From UHGV virus genome UHGV-0482402: 13,693 nt of DNA; one strand, written 5' to 3'. A program made the translations under genes and the position numbers. Position 1 is the first letter of the stretch; each line of letters opens with the position of its first letter. Origin of the DNA: a virus. The notes under the pieces were generated by a model. That model made no database searches, was not told the DNA's origin, and was given only the letters and a program-made list of their open reading frames with translations. This document shows, piece after piece, positions 2,849 through 13,693 of the stretch.

Positions 2849-3097
2849 ATGCGTATTGAGATCTGCATAGCCAAAGAAAAAATGACTAAAATGCCAACCG
2901 GTGCTGTGGATGCGTTAAAGGAAGAATTAACTCGGCGCATCAGTAAGCGTTATGACGATGTAGAAGTGATCGTAAAAGCCACCAGCAATGATGGGCTTTC
3001 TGTTACACGCACAGCAGATAAGGATTCTGCAAAAACATTTGTTCAGGAGACTCTGAAAGATACCTGGGAGTCTGCTGACGAGTGGTTTGTTCACTAA
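2849..3097 (+). CDS. dinI: DinI-family protein (RecA co-protease modulator)
   Basis: The 82-aa translation [37 protein letters not shown]...[16 protein letters not shown] aligns along its length with E. coli DinI as recalled (MRIEVTIAK...ETWESADDWFVSE). LexA boxes lie upstream. Confidence 0.85.
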
Positions 3098-3502: not shown

Positions 3503-6088
3503 CTACTCTATCTCTTTTGCTTTTTTAATTATCAATTCAAGCTCTGTTAAACGAGATTCAATACGTTCACACCTTCTTCGCTGGAATGCAGCCTCCAACC
3601 ACAAACATTCATCTGGACGCAATCCCCAACGCTCACCAGCATGTACAACCAGTTCCGTGTCACCAGTATCGTATTCTTCAAAGTATTCGTGAACGATGTC
3701 TTCTCCTTCAGGGGATTTAGCTATAAATGACACCTTGCGCTGTGCCATTACAGGTTGGTACTCATCATCCCATTTATCATGACATAGCAAGCCAAATCTT
3801 GTTCCATCTATCCCCTTTGCAAGAAACGCATCTCTTACCTGCTGTGCAATTGCTCCGAAATGCCAACGAGCAGTATCCGAACCTTTAGCCTTAATATCGG
3901 ACAACCACTGGTAAACGATAATATTTACGTCACCCCATGCGTCAAGAATTGCATCCTGATCCACCTCCATGATTTCTGAAAGTTGCTCTACTGTCAGTGG
4001 CTTTGTTTTCAATGTCTGGTCTGAAGTATTTATTGCCCCATTAGTTGCATATACTTGCGTCCACCGTTTAGATGATGTCCCACATGATGACGTATTATCT
4101 TTATTAGCACTTATATAGCCATTAACCTCCGCTGACTGACCGATATACGAATATGAAGATGTTGATAAGGGAGATTTAAATATCCATTGAGCATTGGTAA
4201 AGTCATAAATACCGGTATCACCTTTTTCACTAACATGAAAAGTTACATTCCGTAACGTATTCTTTGCATCATAACGGGCGGCTTGTGTTGTTGCCCTCGA
4301 AACAGTGAATCCTTTGTCATCAAGGTTTGCCTGCTCTATGACTTCACCACCAGGCATAATTTTACCAAGGCTTAACAAACCAGAGTTAGTGACAATATCA
4401 TGGGTTGAATCAATGATAATACCAGGCTGATTTCTTGATGTTGTTTTTACATGCATTACCTGTTGTGGCATTAATGTGTAAAATGTAGTTTCTCGCCCAC
4501 TATCACCATCTGGTATGCCATTTGTATTCCCCATTACAAGGTCATACCCACCTGCAATCATACGGAAAAACATTGCTTCTGGTTCATATGTAAGATTGCT
4601 AACATCTGGCGTTCCGGTATCATTTGGATCTGCTATTTCATAGGCTCTTCCTGCACCTGCCTGTATTTGCTGCACCCCAAGATAAACACCATCAAGTGTG
4701 TACTGATGCAAATATTTTCTGGTTGAAGAATATGCAGATCCAGCCTGACAAAAATAAATAGCAGTACCGTCACACGCAACTGTTTGCATATCCCTCACAA
4801 AATCGGCAATTTCAAATTCAAAAGTTGCTTCATTACGATAATCGTAATTGTACGCCTGCGGGTTAATAAATTTGCTGGTATCAAATACTTTTACATAATA
4901 GCGAATTTGATCTGGTGTTGATGGGCTCTCACCAGGGCCAACATAACGTTTTGCTGTAGTAATCAGCCATCGACTCATAGGGTCGGTGCATAAAACATTT
5001 ACCTGATTCTCGTAACCATCTTCCCATATGAGAAAAAACTCTGGTTCAATTTCACCACCATCAGTAGGGGTGAATCTGGTGATATACTTTGCGCGATCCT
5101 CTCCTTTAGCTGTGCCAGCTAACCCCCATATCTGTAACTGGCCTCTTGTGTTACGAAAACCAACGCGCCCTATGGTTAAACCAAGACATTGATGTCCTAA
5201 TTCTCTACTACCTTTAGTCTCCCAAAGAGGAGTTAACTCTTCATTCCCAAACCAATTATAAGCAACAACTTTATTAACTTCATCACCAGAACTAACGCTG
5301 CCACTCACATTTACCAAGCAATAAAGAACACTGTCATAATAATCAAGAACAGCACCCTGTATGACAGTATTTTTAATTGTTGCCAGTCGCAACCCTGACT
5401 TAACATGATTAGGAGTAGAAGGTCTGAAACCTGTATACATCCCCTTTTTTATAGTTTGTATTCTTTTTTCAGTAAAATCAGCATCTGGCAGTAATCGATT
5501 CTCTGTGCGAAAATAGCCATTTATATACTTATTTCCATCAAAAACTTGATCTGTTATATATGTATTACCCCTTAGATCAACAATCCTTCCTGTGATTTGT
5601 TTTTCTAACTCTTGAAAAGATAATGTGTCATCGGTGATGCCATCACCTTTTGCTCCCCATCCGCGAGGGTCAGCGTCATCACGCCACCGAGACATCTGCA
5701 ATTCATGATATTTTTTAGCACCTTCCGGGTCTTCTAATTGTTGTCTTAATTGGTCTGGATCGTACTTAAGCACATTCGGAAAATAGAACTGCTGCGTACC
5801 ATATGCATCGTAAACAGCCATAGAATGGCCTTGCACGGTAACGAATTTGGAAATCTGTCCGTTGTATACCGGGTATCCAGCAGCATTGATAACGATTGGC
5901 TGTGGCACCTGAACATAAGTACCATCTTCTCGTTCCAGATATACTGGAATCTGGTTTTCTGGATTTACCGGATCTGTGTCAATCTTACCGATATAAATTT
6001 TTCCATTTGCTACGGTTTTAAAAGAGCTAGCCATTGTGAAGAGTTGCGATGGCATACCTATCACAACATTTGGGGTTATATCAGGCAT
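3503..6088 (-). CDS. tailspike protein: P22 gp9-type head-binding domain, central pectate-lyase-type beta-helix (putative polysaccharide depolymerase) and C-terminal S74-type intramolecular chaperone
   Basis: The N-terminus [50 protein letters not shown]...[13 protein letters not shown]...NVLKYDPDQ matches the recalled P22 tailspike N-terminus (MTDITANVVV...[27 protein letters not shown]...[13 protein letters not shown]...NVLKYDPDQ). [13 protein letters not shown] beta-helix signature follows. The C-terminal roughly 173 aa begin at NTSDQTLK (Ser codon at 4022-4024) and end in a coiled coil. The start is placed at the ATG at 6088 (AGGA 8 nt upstream), not at the track start 6181. Confidence 0.9.
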
Positions 6089-6430
6089 ATTAGTCATCCT
6101 GTTTGAAGATTTAGATATTGAAGAAAACGGAATGACTGCAGACAACGATGCAATTGTTTTGAAAAATAACCTTCTATTCATTTAAAAACCATGCAACATG
6201 AACAAAACGATTATTTTACAATACTCAAGAATCTTGATCAACAGGCATATTATTTATGCGCTTAATGCGTCACTTACAAAAATAAAAACAAGTAATACCT
6301 TTATTCCTATCGTCCATGATTTTTATTTTCAAACATTATTAAATAACAATTCCTATTTATAATATCTGTCATTTAATTTGCTCCAGATACAAGTAATCGC
6401 TGCAGCGTGGCTACGGTGAATTTTGGGCAT

Positions 6431-6472: not shown

Positions 6473-7375
6473 TCAGTAGTTATGTACTGAAGGAGGTAAT
6501 TCTTTATTCTTAAGTCTCATCCATGCGGAAAGATTCGTTGGTCCATCTGGCTCATTGATATCAACATCTCGTGTGTGATTGATTAAAACGTCTCTCGCCA
6601 TTCCAATAACATACGAGAACTCATGACCGTAGTCGTAGCATCTGCCGGAATAGTTAGACTGAATTTGTTTTAGCGCCGGATACAGTTCGCGGAATAATGC
6701 CTGTGAGCGGTTGGCATAATCCCATAACCATACAAGGCTGTTTGCTTCTTTTGCAGAAAGCTCGTTGGTTTTCTTCTCTTGTTTGCCGATGAATTCGCCT
6801 TCAAGCACTACCCTGTGGATGTACTCTACGGCTTGCGGTATCTGAGACGCATCAAGCTCTTCAATACTTTCCACATTGAAACGCTGATGAATCATTGCAT
6901 AAGCTTCTGGGTACATTAGATGCTTTTTGCTGACCAGCATATTTACAGCATCACGAAGCGGAGTCCTGTCATCAACAGATGTTTTCTTACGTGCATTTTC
7001 TGCCTCTCCCTTTGTCCAGTAGTCATGCAGCACAGTAAAGCATTCTTCCTGGTACTGAATCAGTTTATCGCGGATGTCAGCACGAACTTTCTCAGGGTTG
7101 ATGCTGAACAGCCATCCATTTAACTTCTTCAAAGGAAGGCAGAGTAGCTTACGAAGCTTACCATCAGCGGCAACCATGTTCATATGAACACAGTTGAATT
7201 TGCTAATCTGCTTCATGAGTTTTGTTTGCTGCGTTGACCAGCTCATTCCAAGGTTTTCAACGATTGGCTTCATCGCAACATATGCAACTCCGGCAGCCAT
7301 GGCGGTGATAATTTGCTGACCGTTGAATGGTACGTAAGAGGTGTTCACTGCTTCTAAAATTGCTATACTATTCAT
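6473..7375 (-). CDS. ant: antirepressor Ant
   Basis: 300 aa from the ATG at 7375 ([29 protein letters not shown]...). GGAG lies upstream. It is immediately downstream of an Arc-like RHH gene and upstream of the tailspike, the same order as P22 arc-ant-gene 9. The track start at 7441 is a TTG that overlaps arc. Confidence 0.8.
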
Positions 7376-7447
7376 GTTGGTTTTTCTCCACGGATTTACT
7401 GACAACCGAAGCCCTGACTGTTCCCGCAGTTGGGGCTTCAACTTTTT
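7376..7447 (+). ncRNA. candidate sar-like antisense RNA covering the ant ribosome-binding site
   Basis: A plus-strand -10-like TATACT at 7364-7369 sits inside the first ant codons. A plus-strand intrinsic terminator follows: stem GAAGCCC (7408-7414) and GGGCTTC (7433-7439) with an inner ACTG/CAGT pairing, then AACTTTTT. The roughly 70-nt product would be antisense to the ant Shine-Dalgarno and start codon, like P22 sar. Confidence 0.4.
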
Positions 7448-7578
7448 AGGCTGCGAATAAGACGCTGCACTATTTCTGAATTTAAAGACCTGCCCTCCTC
7501 CTTAGCCTTTTCCTTCAATTTTTCTTTAATCTCTGGCGGGATACGAATCCCTAATGGAGCGATGTCTCTAACTTTCAT
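7438..7578 (-). CDS. arc: Arc-like ribbon-helix-helix repressor (46 aa)
   Basis: Minus-strand ORF missing from the track: [46 protein letters not shown]. It has the RHH signature (N-terminal beta-strand, then G-R-S-hNSEI) and lies directly upstream of ant. The Shine-Dalgarno is TGAGGGG. Confidence 0.7.
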
Positions 7579-7591
7579 TTCCCCTCACTTG

Positions 7592-7677
7592 CTACACCGT
7601 GATAACTAAATACTACACCGTGTTTATTTAAAGTCAAAATTTTTTTGCCTACACTGTGTAGCTATGCACAGCGTGCA
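7592..7677. promoter_or_regulatory. divergent immI control region with operator-like repeats
   Basis: CTACACCGTG occurs at 7592-7601 and again at 7613-7622. A perfect 13-bp palindrome CTACACTGTGTAG sits at 7649-7661 and a second, TGCACAGCGTGCA, at 7665-7677. All lie between the divergent arc (minus) and RHH-1 (plus) start codons. Confidence 0.45.
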
Positions 7678-7686
7678 GGAGGAGAA

Positions 7687-7926
7687 ATGAAAGGTGCAAG
7701 AGATATCAGTCCATTGGGGATTAGGATTCCAGACTATTTAAAGAAACGCATTCAGCAAGAAGCGGATAAAAACGGCAGATCAATGAACTCAGAGATCGTG
7801 CTTATCCTTCAAAAACATGTTGATAATCTTGATGGCTCTCGCTCACTTGAAGGATTCGCTAACCAAGAAGCTGATAAATTCAAAGAGGCGCTACTTGAGA
7901 CGCTAAAGACCATGTATGGTAAATAA
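7687..7926 (+). CDS. ribbon-helix-helix repressor, Mnt-like architecture (RHH plus C-terminal helical oligomerisation tail), paralogue 1
   Basis: ATG at 7687 follows GGAGGAG. Translation is MKGARDISPLGIRIPDYLKKRIQQEADKNGRSMNSEIVLILQKH...EADKFKEALLETLKTMYGK. The N-terminal strand (RDISPLGIRIP) is nearly identical to that of the divergent Arc-like protein ([11 protein letters not shown]). Confidence 0.7.
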   Translation: MKGARDISPLGIRIPDYLKKRIQQEADKNGRSMNSEIVLILQKHVDNLDGSRSLEGFANQEADKFKEALLETLKTMYGK

Positions 7927-7943
7927 TTATTCAGGATGTGCCG

Positions 7944-8201
7944 ATGTCTGATCGTAAGTACAAAAACCCTCAAGTGAATCTGAGGCTTCCTGTAGAGATA
8001 AAGGAACGTCTTATTGAACTGGCTGAGGCTAATTCTCGTTCATTAAATGCTGAGATGGTCGCGGCACTTGAAGCGTGGACAGAAAAAAATAAACACATTC
8101 AAGCACTAGACCTTGCAACTATAGCATCACGATTGATAGATCTTGAACATGATGTTGAGAAGTTGAAATGCATGTATAGCAACAATAAAGACGAAAGTTA
8201 G
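7944..8201 (+). CDS. ribbon-helix-helix repressor with Arc-type N-terminal strand and a C-terminal coiled-coil extension, paralogue 2
   Basis: ATG at 7944 is 7 nt after AGGA. Translation is MSDRKYKNPQVNLRLPVEIKERLIELAEANSRSLNAEMVAALEAW..., and its N-terminus resembles recalled P22 Arc (..PQFNLRWPREV..). Confidence 0.65.
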   Translation: MSDRKYKNPQVNLRLPVEIKERLIELAEANSRSLNAEMVAALEAWTEKNKHIQALDLATIASRLIDLEHDVEKLKCMYSNNKDES

Positions 8202-8224: not shown

Positions 8225-8479
8225 ATGGCTAGAGACGATCCGCACTTTAACTTCCGTATGCCTTTGGAAGTAAGAGAAAAATTGAAATTAAGAGCAGAGG
8301 CTAACGGAAGGTCAATGAACTCAGAGTTATTACAAATCGTTCAGGATGCGCTATCAAAACCATCACCGATTGCAGGCTATCGCGACGATGCTGAACGCTT
8401 GGCTGATCAGCAAGCAGAGCAGTTCAAGGCCGTTGTGTTTGAGACACTTAAAAAGATTTATGGCAAGGATGAAAAATAA
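8225..8479 (+). CDS. mnt: Mnt repressor orthologue (ribbon-helix-helix)
   Basis: MARDDPHFNFRMPLEVREKLKLRAEANGRSMNSELLQIVQDALSKPSP... is near-identical over the N-terminal half to recalled P22 Mnt (MARDDPHFNFRMPMEVREKLKFRAEANGRSMNSELLQIVQDALSKPSP...). GGAG lies 7 nt upstream. Confidence 0.85.
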   Translation: MARDDPHFNFRMPLEVREKLKLRAEANGRSMNSELLQIVQDALSKPSPIAGYRDDAERLADQQAEQFKAVVFETLKKIYGKDEK

Positions 8480-9015
8480 TGCTGCACACAATTCATTTCT
8501 TATGCCCCGTTAACACTGCCACTGTTGGGCAACTTCAGAACCACTGTCTCACCGCATTATCTCAAGGCGCAACTGAATTAAATATCCATATATCAAGTCA
8601 GGGAGGGGAAACTGCCGCTGGCTTTACTGCGTATAACTTTCTTAAGTCACTCCCTGTTACCGTTAGAACTCACAACATAAGCAATGTTGAATCCATAGCT
8701 AATATCGTTTTCCTGGCTGGCTCAGAACGTTTCGCAAACCCATTATCAAGATTCCTGTTACATCCTCTATTATGGTGCTTTGCCTCCCCAGCCGCCGACC
8801 ATGCCAGATTGAGAGAGTACGGGAAATGCCTCGATAACGATCTTGATCGCTTCGTTGAGACGTTCAATATCGACATCGGAACCCATATTAGGTGGGCATC
8901 CCTGATAGCAGACTCGACCATTTTGGATGCTAACAAGGCTCTTGAGCATGGCATAATTAATTCCATAAAAACTGCAAGGCTGGTATCCAATCAGGCAAAC
9001 TGGTGGGTTGTTTGA
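8479..9015 (+). CDS. ClpP-like serine peptidase (ClpP/crotonase fold), translationally coupled to mnt
   Basis: Its ATG overlaps the mnt stop (TAATG). LNIHISSQGGETAAGFTAYNF...NVESIANIVFLAGSERFANPLSRFLLHP lines up with recalled E. coli ClpP ([21 protein letters not shown]...[32 protein letters not shown]). Candidate triad residues are the Ser in ESIAN, the His in LLHP and a downstream Asp in IADSTILD. Confidence 0.65.
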   Translation: MLHTIHFLCPVNTATVGQLQNHCLTALSQGATELNIHISSQGGETAAGFTAYNFLKSLPVTVRTHNISNVESIANIVFLAGSERFANPLSRFLLHPLLWCFASPAADHARLREYGKCLDNDLDRFVETFNIDIGTHIRWASLIADSTILDANKALEHGIINSIKTARLVSNQANWWVV

Positions 9016-9788: not shown

Positions 9789-9810
9789 AGCCGGTTCACT
9801 CCGGCTTTTT
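9789..9810 (+). terminator. rho-independent terminator downstream of the YjzC-like gene (overlaps the last codons of the convergent HExxH gene)
   Basis: AGCCGG-TTCACT-CCGGCT followed by TTTT. Confidence 0.45.
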
Positions 9811-10161
9811 GATATGTCGTTCGCAGAACTCAACAAGCCTGCTCATTAAGTAGCAGTAAGTCTCGTTGGCTCTTCCTGGTTCAACATCAACACCGACCCT
9901 TGAGCAGATATCGAATGCCATGTGAGCGCACTCATGGGCAATAGTAGATAGTTTGCCATTGAACACGCCTATCACATGCAAAACACCATTCTCGCTGCTC
10001 ATTGTATGAGACGCTCCGTTGGCATCCGAGTCCTGCACGTCCACACCAAGTTTTTGATGCAGGCGTTGCCATTCTGGAAAGTCTCTACAAAACACAATTG
10101 TACCGCTCTCAAAGAGCGGTACGAGCATCTTTGGTACGTTTCCAATGTTAACTTTTTTCAT
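9796..10161 (-). CDS. minimal HExxH zinc-metallopeptidase-like protein (121 aa)
   Basis: HECAH motif within ...KLSTIAHECAHMAFDICSRVGVDVEPGRANETY..., with downstream Glu candidates for a third zinc ligand. AGGA lies 4-5 nt before the ATG at 10161. No transmembrane segment is evident. Confidence 0.55.
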   Translation of the reverse strand: MKKVNIGNVPKMLVPLFESGTIVFCRDFPEWQRLHQKLGVDVQDSDANGASHTMSSENGVLHVIGVFNGKLSTIAHECAHMAFDICSRVGVDVEPGRANETYCYLMSRLVEFCERHIKKPE

Positions 10162-10191
10162 GGTATCCTGCTCAAAACTAAGGAGGTTGGT

Positions 10192-10614
10192 GTGTTTGGC
10201 ATATTAACGAGAAGCAAGATAAAAAAATTAAGGGCGGAACTTGCCGAAACACAAAAATTAGCTTCACATTTTTACAAAATGAAACACGACGCTGAAGAGC
10301 GTGCATTCGTTGAGTTATGCGACCTATCTATTCGTATGGGGGTAGAGCCAGATGTAGCGGCAAAAACTCAAGAAGGCGTTAATATACTTGCAGATGTTGT
10401 TTTAAACAGACAATATGCGTTTTATCTAAACGAAAAAGCCATTCAAATTTACTCGCAAATTTTCCTCTTGGAAAAAAGGAGAGGAACTCGCGATAGAGAA
10501 GAGTGGCTAAATGAAGTTGTTAAAAAATCTGGCTGGGAAGTTGTTTCATCAGAGCTACCTTTTATTTGTGCTGATTTAATCGAAGAGGCAAAAGAGCGCC
10601 TATCCGATGGTTAG
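10192..10614 (+). CDS. hypothetical 140-aa protein, divergent from the HExxH gene
   Basis: Track ORF 9976-10614 trimmed to the GTG at 10192, which is 5 nt after a strong AAGGAGG (10180-10186); the earlier part overlaps the HExxH gene. The protein is a charged, helix-rich sequence with no family I recognise. Confidence 0.45.
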   Translation: MFGILTRSKIKKLRAELAETQKLASHFYKMKHDAEERAFVELCDLSIRMGVEPDVAAKTQEGVNILADVVLNRQYAFYLNEKAIQIYSQIFLLEKRRGTRDREEWLNEVVKKSGWEVVSSELPFICADLIEEAKERLSDG

Positions 10615-10646: not shown

Positions 10647-10712
10647 ATGGTAACAGTTGGTTGGATTATCGCGTTCCTTATTGCATTTTGGGTTGGTCGT
10701 CACTGGCTGTAG
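10647..10712 (+). CDS. possible 21-aa hydrophobic micro-protein downstream of the 140-aa gene
   Basis: ATG at 10647 is 6 nt after GGAG. Translation is MVTVGWIIAFLIAFWVGRHWL. It overlaps the 3' end of the convergent gp16-like gene, so it may be fortuitous. Confidence 0.2.
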   Translation: MVTVGWIIAFLIAFWVGRHWL

Positions 10713-12834
10713 TATCTTGCTGAGATAACCATGTGATAAACCCCGTGCGAGAAATGGTTTTTGCTTCATCTGTTGACAGGGTTTTCTCCCATATCTTAAA
10801 TGCATTAGATCGCATCAGCTTCCTTTCTATTACGCGTCTCACTTCTGCTCTGTCTACTGGTGCGTTTTGCAGGCGAAATAGCATTAATTTAAACTCAGGA
10901 GAAGACAGTAGAGCATCAGCAGCCTTTATCCTGCTTGTTTTCCCTGACATCAATGCAGCCGATATTACCCCTGAAGCACCTGCTCCCAAAAGGCCAAATG
11001 AGCTTGTAATTCCTTCCGCCGCAGCAGCTTTTGAGACTATTCCATAAATTTTTGCGAGACTACCCTTTTCTTTCAGAAAGTTATTAACTTGCTGATCCAC
11101 AAGGCTACTAGCATACTGCTTACCAGTATTGAGTCTATTCATAGCCTTAGCTGCTTGATAAATCGTATCAAGGCGCTTTGATGCATCTGTGCCAATAGCA
11201 TCACGGAGAGCCTTCATATTGGCCCCATTGCGTGACATTCCGTTATACCATTTTACAAATCCATCAACTCCTAATTGCTGACCAGGTGATTTGGCATAGC
11301 TGGTAAATGCTTTATTCATTGAGGTGAGCGCAACTTCCTGCCGCATATCCTTTGGAATTGACTTCATTAATTGCCTAAAGTCACCACCGTTTCCTTTTGC
11401 CATATTAACAACGGCACTTTCAACTTTTGGAATTGCTGATTGCTGAAGTTTTCTACCCAAGACGGTTACAGCATCATCTTCAATGGATTTTCGTTTTTTT
11501 ACCAACTCCTTACCAAGCGTCCATAATTCCCCTGCACCATATTTTTCTGCGACAGCCTGTTGGTCATCTGTTATGGCTGCATATAACTTTTTAAGAACAC
11601 CTGTTTCTTCATCCTTGAATGGGCCAGAGCCTTTGCCAATAGCTTGTCCAACCTGCTTTCTAGCGAGATCTAAACGCCCATACGTTGGCAAGGTGTTTGG
11701 ATCAAGTCGGTTCAATGTCCGCTTCATTATTGGAGATAATTCATCAATTCCACCTATGTCATCAGCAAAATCCTCTAAAAAATTCAATGTATTAGTTGCC
11801 TCAATCCGGTCTCTTACAGGTACCTTTTCGGCAATTTTGTTGTAGATGTTATCTGACTGATTTTGTAATGATGAAATGGTTTTATCAAAATTATCTGCAA
11901 GCCTGTCAGAAACCAGTTGCTTATCAAGGTTTCCCCCAAATGAAGTTATCATTTCATCAGCTTTTCTTCCTAATTCAGTAATAAAACGCTTATGCGCCTC
12001 ACTAATCTCTGTTCCAGGGAGACTTGCCACTGCATTATCAAGAGCCCTGACAGCAGGATTATTAGAGATCATGCCTGGAGTGGCATAATTTTCCAGTTCT
12101 AGCTCACGAATAGCATTTATCGCGTTAAAATCAGGATTAACTTCATCGGCGAAATCTTGAATAGCTCGTTGCCCACCAATAAATTTATTATCCATTGCGC
12201 CAGCAGCTTTCTTTAACGTTGCTTTAGATGATTTACTACCCATCCCTACGGATGAGCGATAAATATCTCCGGCACTATTTTTAATTTTTCCTGCAATCTT
12301 CCCAAGCGCTGGACCAACAATCTCGGCTACAGGGCCAGCCACAGCGCCAATAGCAGCGCCGGAAGCAACATCGCTATTTGTTCCATTGGCTACAATAGCC
12401 CCTTCTCCAGCACCAAGCCCTGCGGCGGCAGCCAGCCTTGCCGCCCCTTTCGGAACCTGAGAAATAATCCCACCACCACTAACAAATGGTGCTGCTTGTC
12501 CAACGAACTCACCAACATCTTGTGCGGTTGATGGTTTTGCCGCTAACTTCTGCTGTAGAGACTGAATTGCGGCTTGCTCTTCTGGTGTCATGTCCTGAAA
12601 CAGGCCAACACCTTTACCAACATCCATCAATCCACTGAGAACGCCATACATAAAACGGTCGAAACCGTTAGCATTATTAACAACATTTTCCTGTCTGGAA
12701 TTTTCCTCTGGTGAAACCAAAGGAGATTGCTGCTGTTCTGGTTGGGAATCAAGCACAAAGCCATCAGGAAGCTGTGAGTTATCAGGCTGATTATCGAGAA
12801 CAAAGCCTTCGGGTAAACCTACATCGGTTGCCAT
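10678..12834 (-). CDS. virion ejection/injection protein (P22 gp16-like by position)
   Basis: 718 aa with Gly/Ala-rich segments (AAAGLGAGEGAIVANG..., GAAIGAVAGPVAEIVGPALG). Its start overlaps the upstream gene's 3' end by 16 nt. It lies directly upstream of the immI region, as in the P22 order 20-16-sieA-mnt. Confidence 0.65.
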   Translation of the reverse strand: MATDVGLPEGFVLDNQPDNSQLPDGFVLDSQPEQQQSPLVSPEENSRQENVVNNANGFDRFMYGVLSGLMDVGKGVGLFQDMTPEEQAAIQSLQQKLAAKPSTAQDVGEFVGQAAPFVSGGGIISQVPKGAARLAAAAGLGAGEGAIVANGTNSDVASGAAIGAVAGPVAEIVGPALGKIAGKIKNSAGDIYRSSVGMGSKSSKATLKKAAGAMDNKFIGGQRAIQDFADEVNPDFNAINAIRELELENYATPGMISNNPAVRALDNAVASLPGTEISEAHKRFITELGRKADEMITSFGGNLDKQLVSDRLADNFDKTISSLQNQSDNIYNKIAEKVPVRDRIEATNTLNFLEDFADDIGGIDELSPIMKRTLNRLDPNTLPTYGRLDLARKQVGQAIGKGSGPFKDEETGVLKKLYAAITDDQQAVAEKYGAGELWTLGKELVKKRKSIEDDAVTVLGRKLQQSAIPKVESAVVNMAKGNGGDFRQLMKSIPKDMRQEVALTSMNKAFTSYAKSPGQQLGVDGFVKWYNGMSRNGANMKALRDAIGTDASKRLDTIYQAAKAMNRLNTGKQYASSLVDQQVNNFLKEKGSLAKIYGIVSKAAAAEGITSSFGLLGAGASGVISAALMSGKTSRIKAADALLSSPEFKLMLFRLQNAPVDRAEVRRVIERKLMRSNAFKIWEKTLSTDEAKTISRTGFITWLSQQDTTASDDQPKMQ

Positions 12835-13693
12835 TGTCCGTTCCTATAAATGAGTTTCTGACCAGTTTTAGGGTTCGTTGCCGTCGCGCCTTCTGATATC
12901 CCACTTGGCGCAGCTTTTGTCTGCCCATTACCACCTTGTGGTGTAGGCTGCGCTGGGACATCGTCAAATAGCTTGGCCTTCCTTCTCCCTAAACTTTTTT
13001 TCAGCCCCTGAGGAATAGTATCTCCATACGTATCCAGATATTCGTCTACCTGCTGGTTAAACTGCTGCCCCATAGCGTTGGCGTTAATTTTTGCTGCGTT
13101 GACAATGTTATCCCTCGCTTCCTGTGACAAGCCATTCCCTGCATTAAGCTGGTCTACATATCCTTTTATCTGCCCCCATATGCCATCAGAGCGCATGACC
13201 TGAACCTGTTCACCTTCGCGAACAACTGACTGAGGGTCGAGAGACTTCATGTAATTAAAGATAATCCCAAGTTGGGCAGCGCCAGTATTTACCTTGCTAA
13301 GGGCTTGCAGAGAGTTTGCCGCCGCTCTGACAGAGTTATAATTTTTGCCAAAATTGGTAATGTCAGAATTTAATCCCTTAATTAAGTCTGCTGACGGCTT
13401 ACCTTTTTGCCCCAGCTCCATTAGCTTCAATCCCATCTCATCTGAGTGCATTTGTGCCCGCTGAGCCCTGTCTAGTTGAGCGTTCTGGATATTTGCCCAT
13501 CCTCTCGCATTCTCCATGTCAGCCTGACGGATGCTTTCATCCAATCGCCCTTGCTCAAGTCGACGCCCCTCCATTTGATCTTTGATATCGAAATACTTCT
13601 CATGGCCGAGAGAAAATAGTGCCAGATTACCTGCAAAGTGCTGGAAGCCCTGCGGGTCATTAACCTGCATTTCAGCAATAGTTTCTGGAGGGA
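12819..13693 (-). CDS. virion ejection protein (P22 gp20-like by position), C-terminal part; 5' end outside the window
   Basis: The minus-strand frame stays open to the window edge at 13693, so the track start at 13670 is not the true start. The Gln/Asn-rich helical sequence ends in ...KLIYRNGQWQPM. Confidence 0.6.
   Translation of the reverse strand, partial: PPETIAEMQVNDPQGFQHFAGNLALFSLGHEKYFDIKDQMEGRRLEQGRLDESIRQADMENARGWANIQNAQLDRAQRAQMHSDEMGLKLMELGQKGKPSADLIKGLNSDITNFGKNYNSVRAAANSLQALSKVNTGAAQLGIIFNYMKSLDPQSVVREGEQVQVMRSDGIWGQIKGYVDQLNAGNGLSQEARDNIVNAAKINANAMGQQFNQQVDEYLDTYGDTIPQGLKKSLGRRKAKLFDDVPAQPTPQGGNGQTKAAPSGISEGATATNPKTGQKLIYRNGQWQPM

What the first reader, a model, noticed from the sequence alone, without database searches (positions are those of the whole stretch)
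8225..9015. ClpP-like serine peptidase translationally coupled to the Mnt repressor gene
P22-like phages need no ClpP-type prohead protease, and this gene is not in the structural operon. It sits on the opposite strand, its start codon overlaps the mnt stop (TAATG), and mnt is the maintenance repressor expressed in lysogens. A catalytic-looking ClpP-fold peptidase would therefore be made from the prophage in lysogeny, in the slot where P22 carries superinfection-exclusion functions. That placement suggests a regulatory protease or a defence/exclusion effector rather than a morphogenetic enzyme. The Ser, His and Asp candidates all align with the ClpP triad as I recall it.
Basis: partly seen in the sequence, partly recalled or inferred. 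Interest (0 to 1): 0.8.

Follow-up and report, generated by a model that had tools for sequence, protein, structure and literature searches.

The report
Short gate-less ClpP prophage moron
A P22-like E. coli prophage carries, fused to the end of its maintenance-repressor (mnt) operon, a small ClpP-type serine peptidase subunit that lacks the usual gate, ATPase-docking pocket and catalytic Asp; it is not a capsid protease, and relatives recur as lone opposite-strand cargo genes in many temperate phages, with a biological role nobody has tested.

Summary
A 178-aa ORF (8479-9015, +) starts at an ATG sharing one base with the mnt stop (TAATG). It is a significant ClpP-family member (Pfam PF00574, 44 bits against a cutoff of 20) under strong purifying selection (dN/dS 0.08).

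Ser72 and His95 are invariant, but the canonical Asp position holds Ser146. The adjacent Asp145 is not conserved.

The closest characterised relative is Pseudomonas plecoglossicida ClpP1 (PDB 9UXT; 40% identity, TM 0.93). That protein is an N-terminally truncated, wide-pore, weakly active tetradecamer. It cannot bind ClpX but stacks onto canonical ClpP.

The gene is not morphogenetic. In E. coli and Pectobacterium it always follows an Mnt gene with the same TAATG joint, whatever the Mnt allele. Homologs of 74% identity or less have no Mnt upstream and sit in other prophage positions; wherever genes were called, they lie antiparallel to the flanking phage genes.

In P22 and sibling prophages the same slot holds sieA, PIN or YafO cargo.

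The best reading is a lysogeny-expressed moron encoding an accessory ClpP ring subunit. Its payoff (exclusion, defence or lysogen physiology) is unproven. It matches no known defence model, and I found no literature on it.

The parts
8479..9015 (+). Short ClpP1-type serine peptidase subunit gene (178 aa). Catalytic Ser72 and His95; Ser146 at the canonical Asp position. No N-terminal axial loop.
   Evidence: Pfam PF00574 44 bits. PDB 9UXT E=1.8e-35 and Foldseek TM 0.93. Family alignment A1. Alignment to E. coli ClpP. dN/dS 0.08.
8225..8479 (+). mnt-type repressor gene (third of three). Its stop overlaps the peptidase ATG, and its last ~25-45 nt, including the AAGGA SD, are part of the conserved joint.
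   Evidence: Pfam Arc plus Repressor_Mnt. TAATG seen in sequence. The same joint and the C-terminal ...ETLKxxYGKD[ED]K follow at least 5 different Mnt alleles.
7938..8201 (+). Second Mnt/Arc-family RHH gene of the same transcription unit.
   Evidence: Pfam Arc 3.4e-10. This allele lies directly upstream of the clpP-like gene in L017 and L044.
7666..7926 (+). First Mnt/Arc-family RHH gene (alternative TTG start at 7645), divergent from arc-ant.
   Evidence: Pfam Arc 6.8e-08, PHROG 2685 4e-30. This allele lies directly upstream of the clpP-like gene in PhiR12 and L026-30.
7579..7665 (.). Divergent control region between arc and the mnt array. It holds repeated CTACACCGTG motifs and a palindrome (candidate operators) and a minus-strand promoter-like site (candidate Pant) at 7637-7610.
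   Evidence: No consensus plus-strand promoter was detected, so Pmnt is inferred from the homologous P22 layout.
7438..7578 (-). arc
   Evidence: Pfam Arc 4.9e-13
6473..7441 (-). ant (antirepressor)
   Evidence: Pfam P22_AR_N and P22_AR_C; PHROG 245 5.6e-100

Best explanation
The gene encodes an accessory, 'short' ClpP subunit carried as a prophage moron.

Expression (inferred). It is transcribed with the mnt array from the lysogenic immI promoter and is probably translationally coupled to mnt (TAATG, internal SD). It would therefore be made in lysogens.

Protein (shown by sequence and model). It has a ClpP fold with the Ser72-His95 pair and the SxGG oxyanion region intact. It lacks the catalytic Asp and the whole N-terminal gate and axial loop. 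It also lacks most hydrophobic residues of the ClpX/ClpA (IGF-loop/ADEP) docking pocket.

Mechanism (by homology to PpClpP1, 40% identity, not tested here). It should form heptameric rings and tetradecamers with a wide-open pore and weak intrinsic peptidase activity, and it should be unable to bind ClpX or ClpA itself. It could act alone as an ungated peptidase, or as a ring stacked on a host ClpP heptamer. In the stacked case it would reprogram host ClpXP/ClpAP proteolysis in the lysogen.

Biological payoff (inferred from context only). The function is generic and independent of immI, most plausibly superinfection exclusion, defence or a lysogen fitness trait. It is not head maturation and not specific control of Ant, Arc or Mnt.
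For: Family and fold.

Ser and His are invariant, the Asp is replaced and the N-terminus is truncated. Pocket residues Y60/Y62/F82/I90/M92/F112/L114/L189 of mature E. coli ClpP correspond to N35/H37/S57/H65/I67/F85/N87/K164.

Biochemistry of the nearest relative PpClpP1: homo-14-mer with a 42.7 A pore and 13-fold weaker peptidase activity. Ser and His are essential and the third residue is dispensable. It does not bind ClpX, and the hetero-14-mer with canonical ClpP is more active with ClpX (PMC12900304). As a precedent, PaClpP2 tunes ClpXP assembly (PMC13056064).

Moron behaviour. In every homolog locus with called genes the gene is antiparallel to the flanking phage genes; in the one partial exception (P0063) an uncharacterised 182-aa same-strand ORF precedes it. 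The positions differ: the lysis-terminase junction in Klebsiella, Leclercia and E. coli lambdoids, N-erf in Proteus, and the lysis/tail-fibre junction in Chromobacterium. On the crude ORF calls it also lies between a tape-measure-like and a DNA-circulation-like gene in L064.

The link to mnt is conserved across at least 5 Mnt alleles and in Pectobacterium. The whole ant-arc-mnt-clp cassette also occurs in lambda-like siphoviruses. The slot holds sieA, PIN or YafO in relatives.

128 of 5426 complete E. coli genomes carry the gene, 127 of them at 99% or higher nucleotide identity.
Against: No expression data are available. No consensus plus-strand promoter was found upstream of the mnt array, and no terminator between 9015 and 9093. 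Promoter scans of homolog loci were no better than shuffles.

Oligomeric state, activity and interaction with E. coli ClpP are extrapolated from a 40%-identical Pseudomonas protein. That protein is chromosomal, not phage-borne.

There is no hit to any PADLOC defence model.

The invariable mnt coupling in E. coli could still reflect an immI-specific role in that clade.
Confidence: 0.6

Rival explanations
1. immI-dedicated regulatory protease. Made together with Mnt, it degrades leaky antirepressor (Ant), Arc or another immI protein to stabilise lysogeny, or it times the switch.
For: The gene lies immediately after mnt, with a conserved overlap, in every locus of 97% identity or more where the upstream gene is intact, and in Pectobacterium. 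The ant-arc-mnt-clp cassette moves as a unit into lambda-like siphoviruses.
Against: Homologs of 51-74% identity never have Mnt, Arc or Ant nearby, so family function cannot depend on immI. P22 and many siblings run immI without it. A gate-less ring with no adaptor or ATPase site has no obvious way to select a folded substrate.
Confidence: 0.12
2. Superinfection-exclusion or anti-phage defence effector. The open-pore ring, alone or on host ClpP, degrades unfolded or freshly ejected proteins of incoming phages, or it triggers abortive proteolysis.
For: It occupies the sieA slot of P22, which in siblings holds PIN and YafO toxin-type cargo. It behaves as a lone opposite-strand moron at classic moron sites. 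The predicted ungated pore follows from the PpClpP1 structure.
Against: No PADLOC hit for this protein or its homologs. There is no published phenotype. Close relatives in Pseudomonas and Azotobacter are chromosomal genes next to stress-protein genes, not in defence islands.
Confidence: 0.3
3. ClpP-related prohead (head maturation) protease or scaffold, as annotated for phage phiv205-1.
For: The best PHROG hit is phrog_94 'head maturation protease' (7.4e-21). GenBank annotates the phiv205-1 copy this way.
Against: NCBIfam Clp_rel_HeadMat scores 49 bits against a cutoff of 120. The gene is outside, and antiparallel to, the virion genes. A Leclercia prophage has a separate 284-aa ClpP prohead protease. 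P22 assembles without a protease (established knowledge). The nearest structure is a cellular ClpP paralog.
Confidence: 0.02
4. Toxin-antitoxin-like pair in which the RHH protein (Mnt) neutralises or represses a toxic ungated protease.
For: An RHH gene overlapping the start of a downstream gene is the typical type II TA layout. Sibling prophages carry toxin-family genes (PIN, YafO) in the same slot.
Against: Homologs elsewhere have no upstream RHH. The Mnt alleles are interchangeable, which argues against a specific protein-protein pairing. Mnt has an established repressor role.
Confidence: 0.05

Closest known systems
PpClpP1 of Pseudomonas plecoglossicida (PDB 9UXT; PMC12900304)
   Same: 40% identity, phmmer E=1.8e-35, Foldseek TM 0.93. 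Same length class (178 vs 183 aa), the same N-terminal truncation removing the axial loop, conserved Ser and His, and a non-Asp third residue. The polar substitutions in the ATPase-docking pocket are similar.
   Different: The third position is Ser146 here and Pro151 there. PpClpP1 and its Pseudomonas/Azotobacter orthologs are chromosomal genes in non-phage neighbourhoods. This gene is prophage cargo fused to the mnt operon. Its oligomeric state, activity and pairing with E. coli ClpP are untested.
Housekeeping ClpP (E. coli ClpP, peptidase family S14)
   Same: Same fold (TM about 0.78). Ser and His align with Ser111 and His136 of the precursor, and the handle helix is present.
   Different: 27% identity. 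TIGR00493 scores 19 bits against a cutoff of 309. There is no propeptide or N-terminal gate, no catalytic Asp, and 6 of 8 pocket residues are polar.
Atypical accessory ClpP subunits that hetero-oligomerise with a canonical ClpP (P. aeruginosa ClpP2, PMC13056064; Listeria and Mycobacterium ClpP1P2)
   Same: A second, atypical ClpP ring that depends on, or modulates, the canonical ring and so tunes ClpXP output. This is the proposed way of working.
   Different: Those are chromosomal paralogs of the same organism. Here the accessory subunit would be supplied by a prophage to the host's single ClpP. Hetero-oligomerisation is not shown.
ClpP-related phage prohead proteases (NCBIfam NF045542, PHROG 94)
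   Same: Same superfamily; best PHROG match.
   Different: The score is below the family cutoff, the genome position and strand are wrong, and the gene coexists with a genuine prohead protease in Leclercia prophages.
P22 sieA and other cargo of the mnt-gene 16 slot
   Same: Same genomic slot and orientation downstream of mnt.
   Different: No sequence or fold relationship. SieA is a membrane exclusion protein (established knowledge).

Membership tests
Peptidase S14 / Pfam CLP_protease (PF00574) | Profile match above the curated threshold | tested here: met
   44.4 bits against a cutoff of 20.2, E=2.2e-11, residues 24-165
Peptidase S14 / Pfam CLP_protease (PF00574) | ClpP alpha/beta fold with handle helix | tested here: met
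   AF2 model with pLDDT 90 and pTM 0.87. Foldseek TM 0.93 to 9UXT and 0.76-0.81 to ClpP structures.
Peptidase S14 / Pfam CLP_protease (PF00574) | Catalytic Ser and His | tested here: met
   Ser72 and His95 align to E. coli ClpP Ser111 and His136 and are invariant in 28+19 sequences
Peptidase S14 / Pfam CLP_protease (PF00574) | Catalytic Asp completing the triad | tested here: not met
   E. coli ClpP Asp185 aligns to Ser146 in three alignments. Asp145 is adjacent but not conserved. Triad geometry could not be measured because no coordinates were available.
Housekeeping ClpP ortholog (TIGR00493 / PRK00277) | Equivalog score, N-terminal axial loop, hydrophobic ClpX/ClpA docking pocket | tested here: not met
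   19.2 bits against a cutoff of 308.6. The protein starts at about residue 40 of the E. coli precursor. Pocket residues are N35/H37/S57/H65/I67/F85/N87/K164.
PpClpP1-like short ClpP paralogs | Close sequence and structure similarity, N-terminal truncation, Ser-His with a non-Asp third residue | tested here: met
   E=1.8e-35, 40% identity, TM 0.93. Truncation and Ser146/Pro151 equivalence. 243 representative clusters at E<=1e-30.
PpClpP1-like short ClpP paralogs | Homotetradecamer with dilated pore; hetero-tetradecamer with canonical ClpP; no ClpX binding | not testable with these tools
   Only monomer prediction is available. These properties are known for PpClpP1 alone.
ClpP-related prohead protease (NF045542, PHROG 94) | Score above the NCBIfam cutoff; location between portal and capsid genes | tested here: not met
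   49.3 bits against a cutoff of 120. The gene is located in immI, antiparallel to the virion genes. A separate prohead protease exists in L093/L094.
Peptidase S49 (SppA) | Profile match to Peptidase_S49 | tested here: not met
   No S49 hit at E<=1 in Pfam
Known anti-phage defence systems (PADLOC-DB v2) | Match to any defence protein model | tested here: not met
   No hits for the protein, its neighbours or its homologs P0027, P0063 and P0070
Prophage moron (lysogeny-expressed cargo gene) | Single gene inserted antiparallel to the flanking phage genes at variable positions in different phages | tested here: met
Prophage moron (lysogeny-expressed cargo gene) | Own promoter and terminator, or expression in the lysogen | tested here: inconclusive
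   Consensus scans were not above shuffles. Expression from Pmnt is inferred from P22 biology.

The most novel reading that the evidence does not exclude
Temperate phages of Enterobacterales supply their host's single ClpP with a second, gate-less, ATPase-blind ring. The resulting hybrid (or autonomous) open-pore protease would be a new kind of lysogenic-conversion or superinfection-exclusion device. It would act by degrading unfolded, freshly ejected or nascent proteins of incoming phages, or by rewiring ClpXP/ClpAP substrate turnover. This would also recast the 'ClpP1' of Pseudomonas as part of a family exchanged between chromosomes and phages.
Probability: 0.22. Interest if true: 0.85.

Novelty: new variant of a known kind. 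Interest (0 to 1): 0.58.

Why it matters
ClpXP and ClpAP control many regulators and several phage proteins. E. coli is the textbook one-ClpP organism, yet about 2.4% of complete E. coli genomes (128 of 5426) carry this prophage-borne second ClpP-type subunit in nearly identical form. If it assembles with host ClpP or acts as an ungated peptidase, then lysogeny changes the host's proteolytic machinery. That could explain exclusion, stress or virulence phenotypes of P22-like and lambdoid lysogens.

It would also correct database labels. The gene is called 'head maturation protease' in phage phiv205-1 and 'ATP-dependent Clp protease proteolytic subunit' in RefSeq.

The question is directly testable with simple genetics and biochemistry, and a solved structure of a 40%-identical relative now exists.

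Tried and rejected
- Prohead protease reading: rejected (NCBIfam score below cutoff, genome context, coexistence with a genuine prohead protease).
- S49/SppA: no hit.
- Known defence systems: no PADLOC hit for the protein, its neighbours or its homologs.
- Asp145 as the triad Asp: rejected on three alignments and on lack of conservation.
- Idea that PpClpP1 is itself prophage-borne: checked and rejected. Pseudomonas and Azotobacter orthologs sit in chromosomal, non-phage neighbourhoods next to KGG/CsbD-type stress genes.
- Promoter and terminator scans in the window and in three homolog loci: no signal above shuffles.
- Literature searches for phage-encoded or prophage ClpP paralogs, immI plus Clp, and moron plus Clp protease found nothing on this gene. 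The phiv205-1 and E212 papers do not discuss it, and a search for PhiR12 returned nothing relevant.
- Measuring triad distances in the AF2 model was impossible because coordinates are not exposed.
- Upstream same-strand ORFs in divergent loci were mostly spurious. One 182-aa ORF with an RNKRSH motif had no Pfam or PADLOC hit.
- Plasmids: only one close homolog, on a 50-kb Enterobacter record.

Full report
**The locus**

The window is the right arm of a P22-like (Lederbergvirus-type) E. coli prophage. Its genes, in order, are:

| Coordinates | Strand | Gene |
|---|---|---|
| 1245-2558 | + | integrase |
| 3503-6181 | - | tailspike |
| 6473-7441 | - | ant |
| 7438-7578 | - | arc |
| 7666-7926, 7938-8201, 8225-8479 | + | three tandem Mnt/Arc-family ribbon-helix-helix genes |
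| 8479-9015 | + | the ORF in question |
| (between) | mixed | several small ORFs |
| 10678-12834, 12819-13670 | - | ejection genes 16 and 20 |

Closely related DNA occurs in E. coli chromosomes and in phages phiv205-1, E212, EC.P3 and PhiR12.

**Observation check**

The 178-aa ORF begins at the first ATG after a stop, and that ATG shares its A with the TAA stop of the third mnt gene (GAAAAATAATGCTG). An AAGGA Shine-Dalgarno lies 9 nt upstream, inside mnt.

The ORF is a genuine gene. Homologs of 51-100% identity exist (68 clusters and 115 IMG/VR loci). Against the 79%-identical Pectobacterium copy, dN/dS is 0.08 with synonymous sites near saturation.

It matches Pfam CLP_protease above threshold (44.4 against 20.2 bits). 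It does not match S49, and it does not match any PADLOC defence model.

**What the protein is**

The best solved relative is 9UXT (E=1.8e-35, 40% identity by BLASTP). A high-confidence AF2 model (pLDDT 90, pTM 0.87) superposes on it with TM 0.93, and on E. coli ClpP with TM about 0.78.

9UXT is PpClpP1 of Pseudomonas plecoglossicida. The published work (PMC12900304) reports the following:
- It is an N-terminally truncated paralog that forms a homotetradecamer with a 42.7 A axial pore.
- It has a Ser73-His96-Pro151 'triad' and about 13-fold lower peptidase activity than the canonical paralog.
- Ser and His are strictly required, while the third residue is dispensable.
- It does not bind ClpX.
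- It forms a hetero-tetradecamer with the canonical ClpP that degrades ClpX substrates faster.

The window protein shares the defining features:
- Ser72 and His95 align with E. coli ClpP Ser111 and His136. They are invariant in 28 family members and 19 Pseudomonas relatives.
- The canonical Asp185 column holds Ser146 in three independent alignments. Across the phage-type family this column is Ser 9, Ala 16, Thr 1, Gly 2. In the Pseudomonas clade it is Pro 17, Ala 2.
- The protein starts at about residue 40 of the E. coli precursor. The propeptide, the axial loop and the start of helix A are therefore missing.
- Eight residues that, from my knowledge of the ADEP and ClpX-IGF pocket, line the docking site are Y60, Y62, F82, I90, M92, F112, L114 and L189 (mature numbering). 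They correspond here to N35, H37, S57, H65, I67, F85, N87 and K164.

The protein is not an ortholog of housekeeping ClpP (TIGR00493 19 against 309 bits). It is also not a member of the ClpP-related head-maturation family (NF045542 49 against 120 bits).

**Context evidence**

(a) Among alleles of 97% identity or more (E. coli) and the 79% Pectobacterium allele, the gene follows an Mnt-type gene with the same one-base overlap in every locus where the upstream gene is intact. The Mnt alleles upstream differ widely: at least five types, 37-100% identical to the three alleles in this window. All of them end ...ETLKxxYGKD[ED]K followed by TAATG. The conserved DNA begins only in the last ~25-45 nt of mnt. 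The unit that recombines is therefore 'mnt 3' end plus SD plus clp'.

(b) 128 of 5426 complete E. coli genomes carry the gene, 127 of them at 99% or higher nucleotide identity.

(c) The complete ant-arc-mnt-clp cassette also sits between lambda-type tail genes K and L. This is seen in the siphoviruses PhiR12_1, PhiR12_4 and PhiR12_5 and in IMG/VR contigs.

(d) Homologs of 74% identity or less never have Mnt, Arc or Ant nearby. Wherever gene calls exist, they are antiparallel to the flanking phage genes; the one partial exception is P0063, which is preceded by an uncharacterised 182-aa same-strand ORF. The positions seen are:
- convergent with Rz/Rz1 at the lysis-terminase junction of lambdoid prophages of Klebsiella, Leclercia, E. 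coli and others (about 30 loci);
- between N and erf/ssb in Proteus;
- between lysis and tail-fibre genes in a Chromobacterium prophage;
- on crude ORF calls, between a tape-measure-like and a DNA-circulation-like gene, or beside terminase or tail-fibre genes.

(e) The Leclercia prophage carries both this short gene and a genuine 284-aa ClpP prohead protease between portal and capsid. Together with P22's protease-free assembly (established knowledge), this excludes a morphogenetic role.

(f) In P22 the slot after mnt holds ORF59a and sieA. In CUS-3 and sibling E. coli prophages it holds a hypothetical gene plus a YafO-family toxin or a PIN-domain gene.

(g) The PpClpP1 clade itself is chromosomal in Pseudomonas and Azotobacter, next to KGG/CsbD-type stress genes and not in prophages. 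The broader short-ClpP family comprises 243 representative clusters at E<=1e-30.

**Mechanism**

Shown here:
- ClpP fold and Ser/His conservation;
- loss of the Asp, the gate and the docking-pocket hydrophobics;
- the conserved overlap with mnt;
- moron-like distribution.

Inferred:
- Transcription from Pmnt in lysogens. This rests on P22 immI biology, where Mnt represses Pant and supports Pmnt while Arc shuts both down. No consensus plus-strand promoter or downstream terminator was detected.
- Ring or tetradecamer assembly, weak ungated peptidase activity and possible stacking on host ClpP. These rest on homology to PpClpP1 and on the precedent of PaClpP2 tuning ClpXP assembly.

Because distant homologs function without immI, I favour a generic moron function over a protease dedicated to Ant, Arc or Mnt. 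Candidates are exclusion, defence or lysogen physiology. Which of these applies cannot be decided computationally.

**Novelty**

RefSeq labels the gene 'ATP-dependent Clp protease proteolytic subunit'. The phiv205-1 GenBank record calls it 'head maturation protease'. Neither label fits the evidence: the protein cannot be expected to dock an ATPase, and it is not morphogenetic. I found no paper describing a phage- or prophage-encoded short ClpP paralog. Its nearest characterised relative was published only in 2026.

It is a new variant of a known kind, an accessory ClpP subunit, in a new biological setting: a prophage moron hard-wired to the maintenance-repressor operon.

**Verdict**

The specific role is open. 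Interest is moderate to high because the question is cheap to test and concerns a central protease of the best-studied bacterium.

Noticed in passing
window 7645/7666-7926, 7938-8201, 8225-8479: There are three tandem, mutually divergent Mnt/Arc-family repressor genes. Each allele occurs singly, directly upstream of the clpP-like gene, in other prophages. L014 has the same triple array, and L017 and CUS-3 have doubles. This may broaden immI immunity to several antirepressor-promoter specificities.
   Followed up: partly
window 7591-7662: The arc-mnt intergenic region contains three copies of CTACACCGTG(A/T) in direct and inverted arrangement, including the palindrome CTACACTGTGTAG (7649-7661). 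These are candidate Mnt/Arc operators. A minus-strand promoter-like site (candidate Pant) lies at 7637-7610.
   Followed up: partly
L002 (PhiR12_1) 3525-5537; also L019, L022-24, L026-30, L036: The whole ant-arc-mnt-clp cassette is inserted between lambda-type tail genes K and L in siphoviruses. The immI module, with the clpP-like gene attached, is therefore mobile between podovirus and siphovirus backbones.
   Followed up: partly
window 9796-10161 (-): A 121-aa ORF (PHROG 1365, unknown function) contains an HECAH (HExxH-type) motif suggesting a small metallopeptidase-like protein. It partly overlaps a plus-strand ORF, 9976-10614.
   Followed up: no
window 2849-3097 (+): A DinI-like 82-aa ORF lies next to the integrase (NCBIfam PRK10597, 73 bits, below the cutoff of 111).
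   Followed up: no
L095 2219-2767; L074-L080 upstream of the clp homolog: The 52%-identical E. coli homolog (P0063) is preceded on the same strand by a 182-aa ORF carrying an RNKRSH (Rx4H, HEPN-like) motif. It has no Pfam or PADLOC hit.
   Followed up: partly
L093/L094 43-897 and 6001-6540: A Leclercia prophage encodes two ClpP-family genes: a 284-aa prohead protease between portal and capsid, and the 179-aa short ClpP moron between lysis and terminase.
   Followed up: yes
L107 5450-6708; L108 4773-6221; L100 3871-4954: The slot between mnt and gene 16 is a variable cargo site. It holds hypothetical plus PIN, hypothetical plus YafO toxin plus hypothetical, or ORF59a plus sieA in different P22-like prophages.
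   Followed up: partly
L102-L106 (Pseudomonas, Azotobacter): The characterised PpClpP1 clade is a stand-alone chromosomal gene near small general-stress genes (KGG, CsbD). The 2026 paper does not use the word prophage (0 occurrences).
   Followed up: partly
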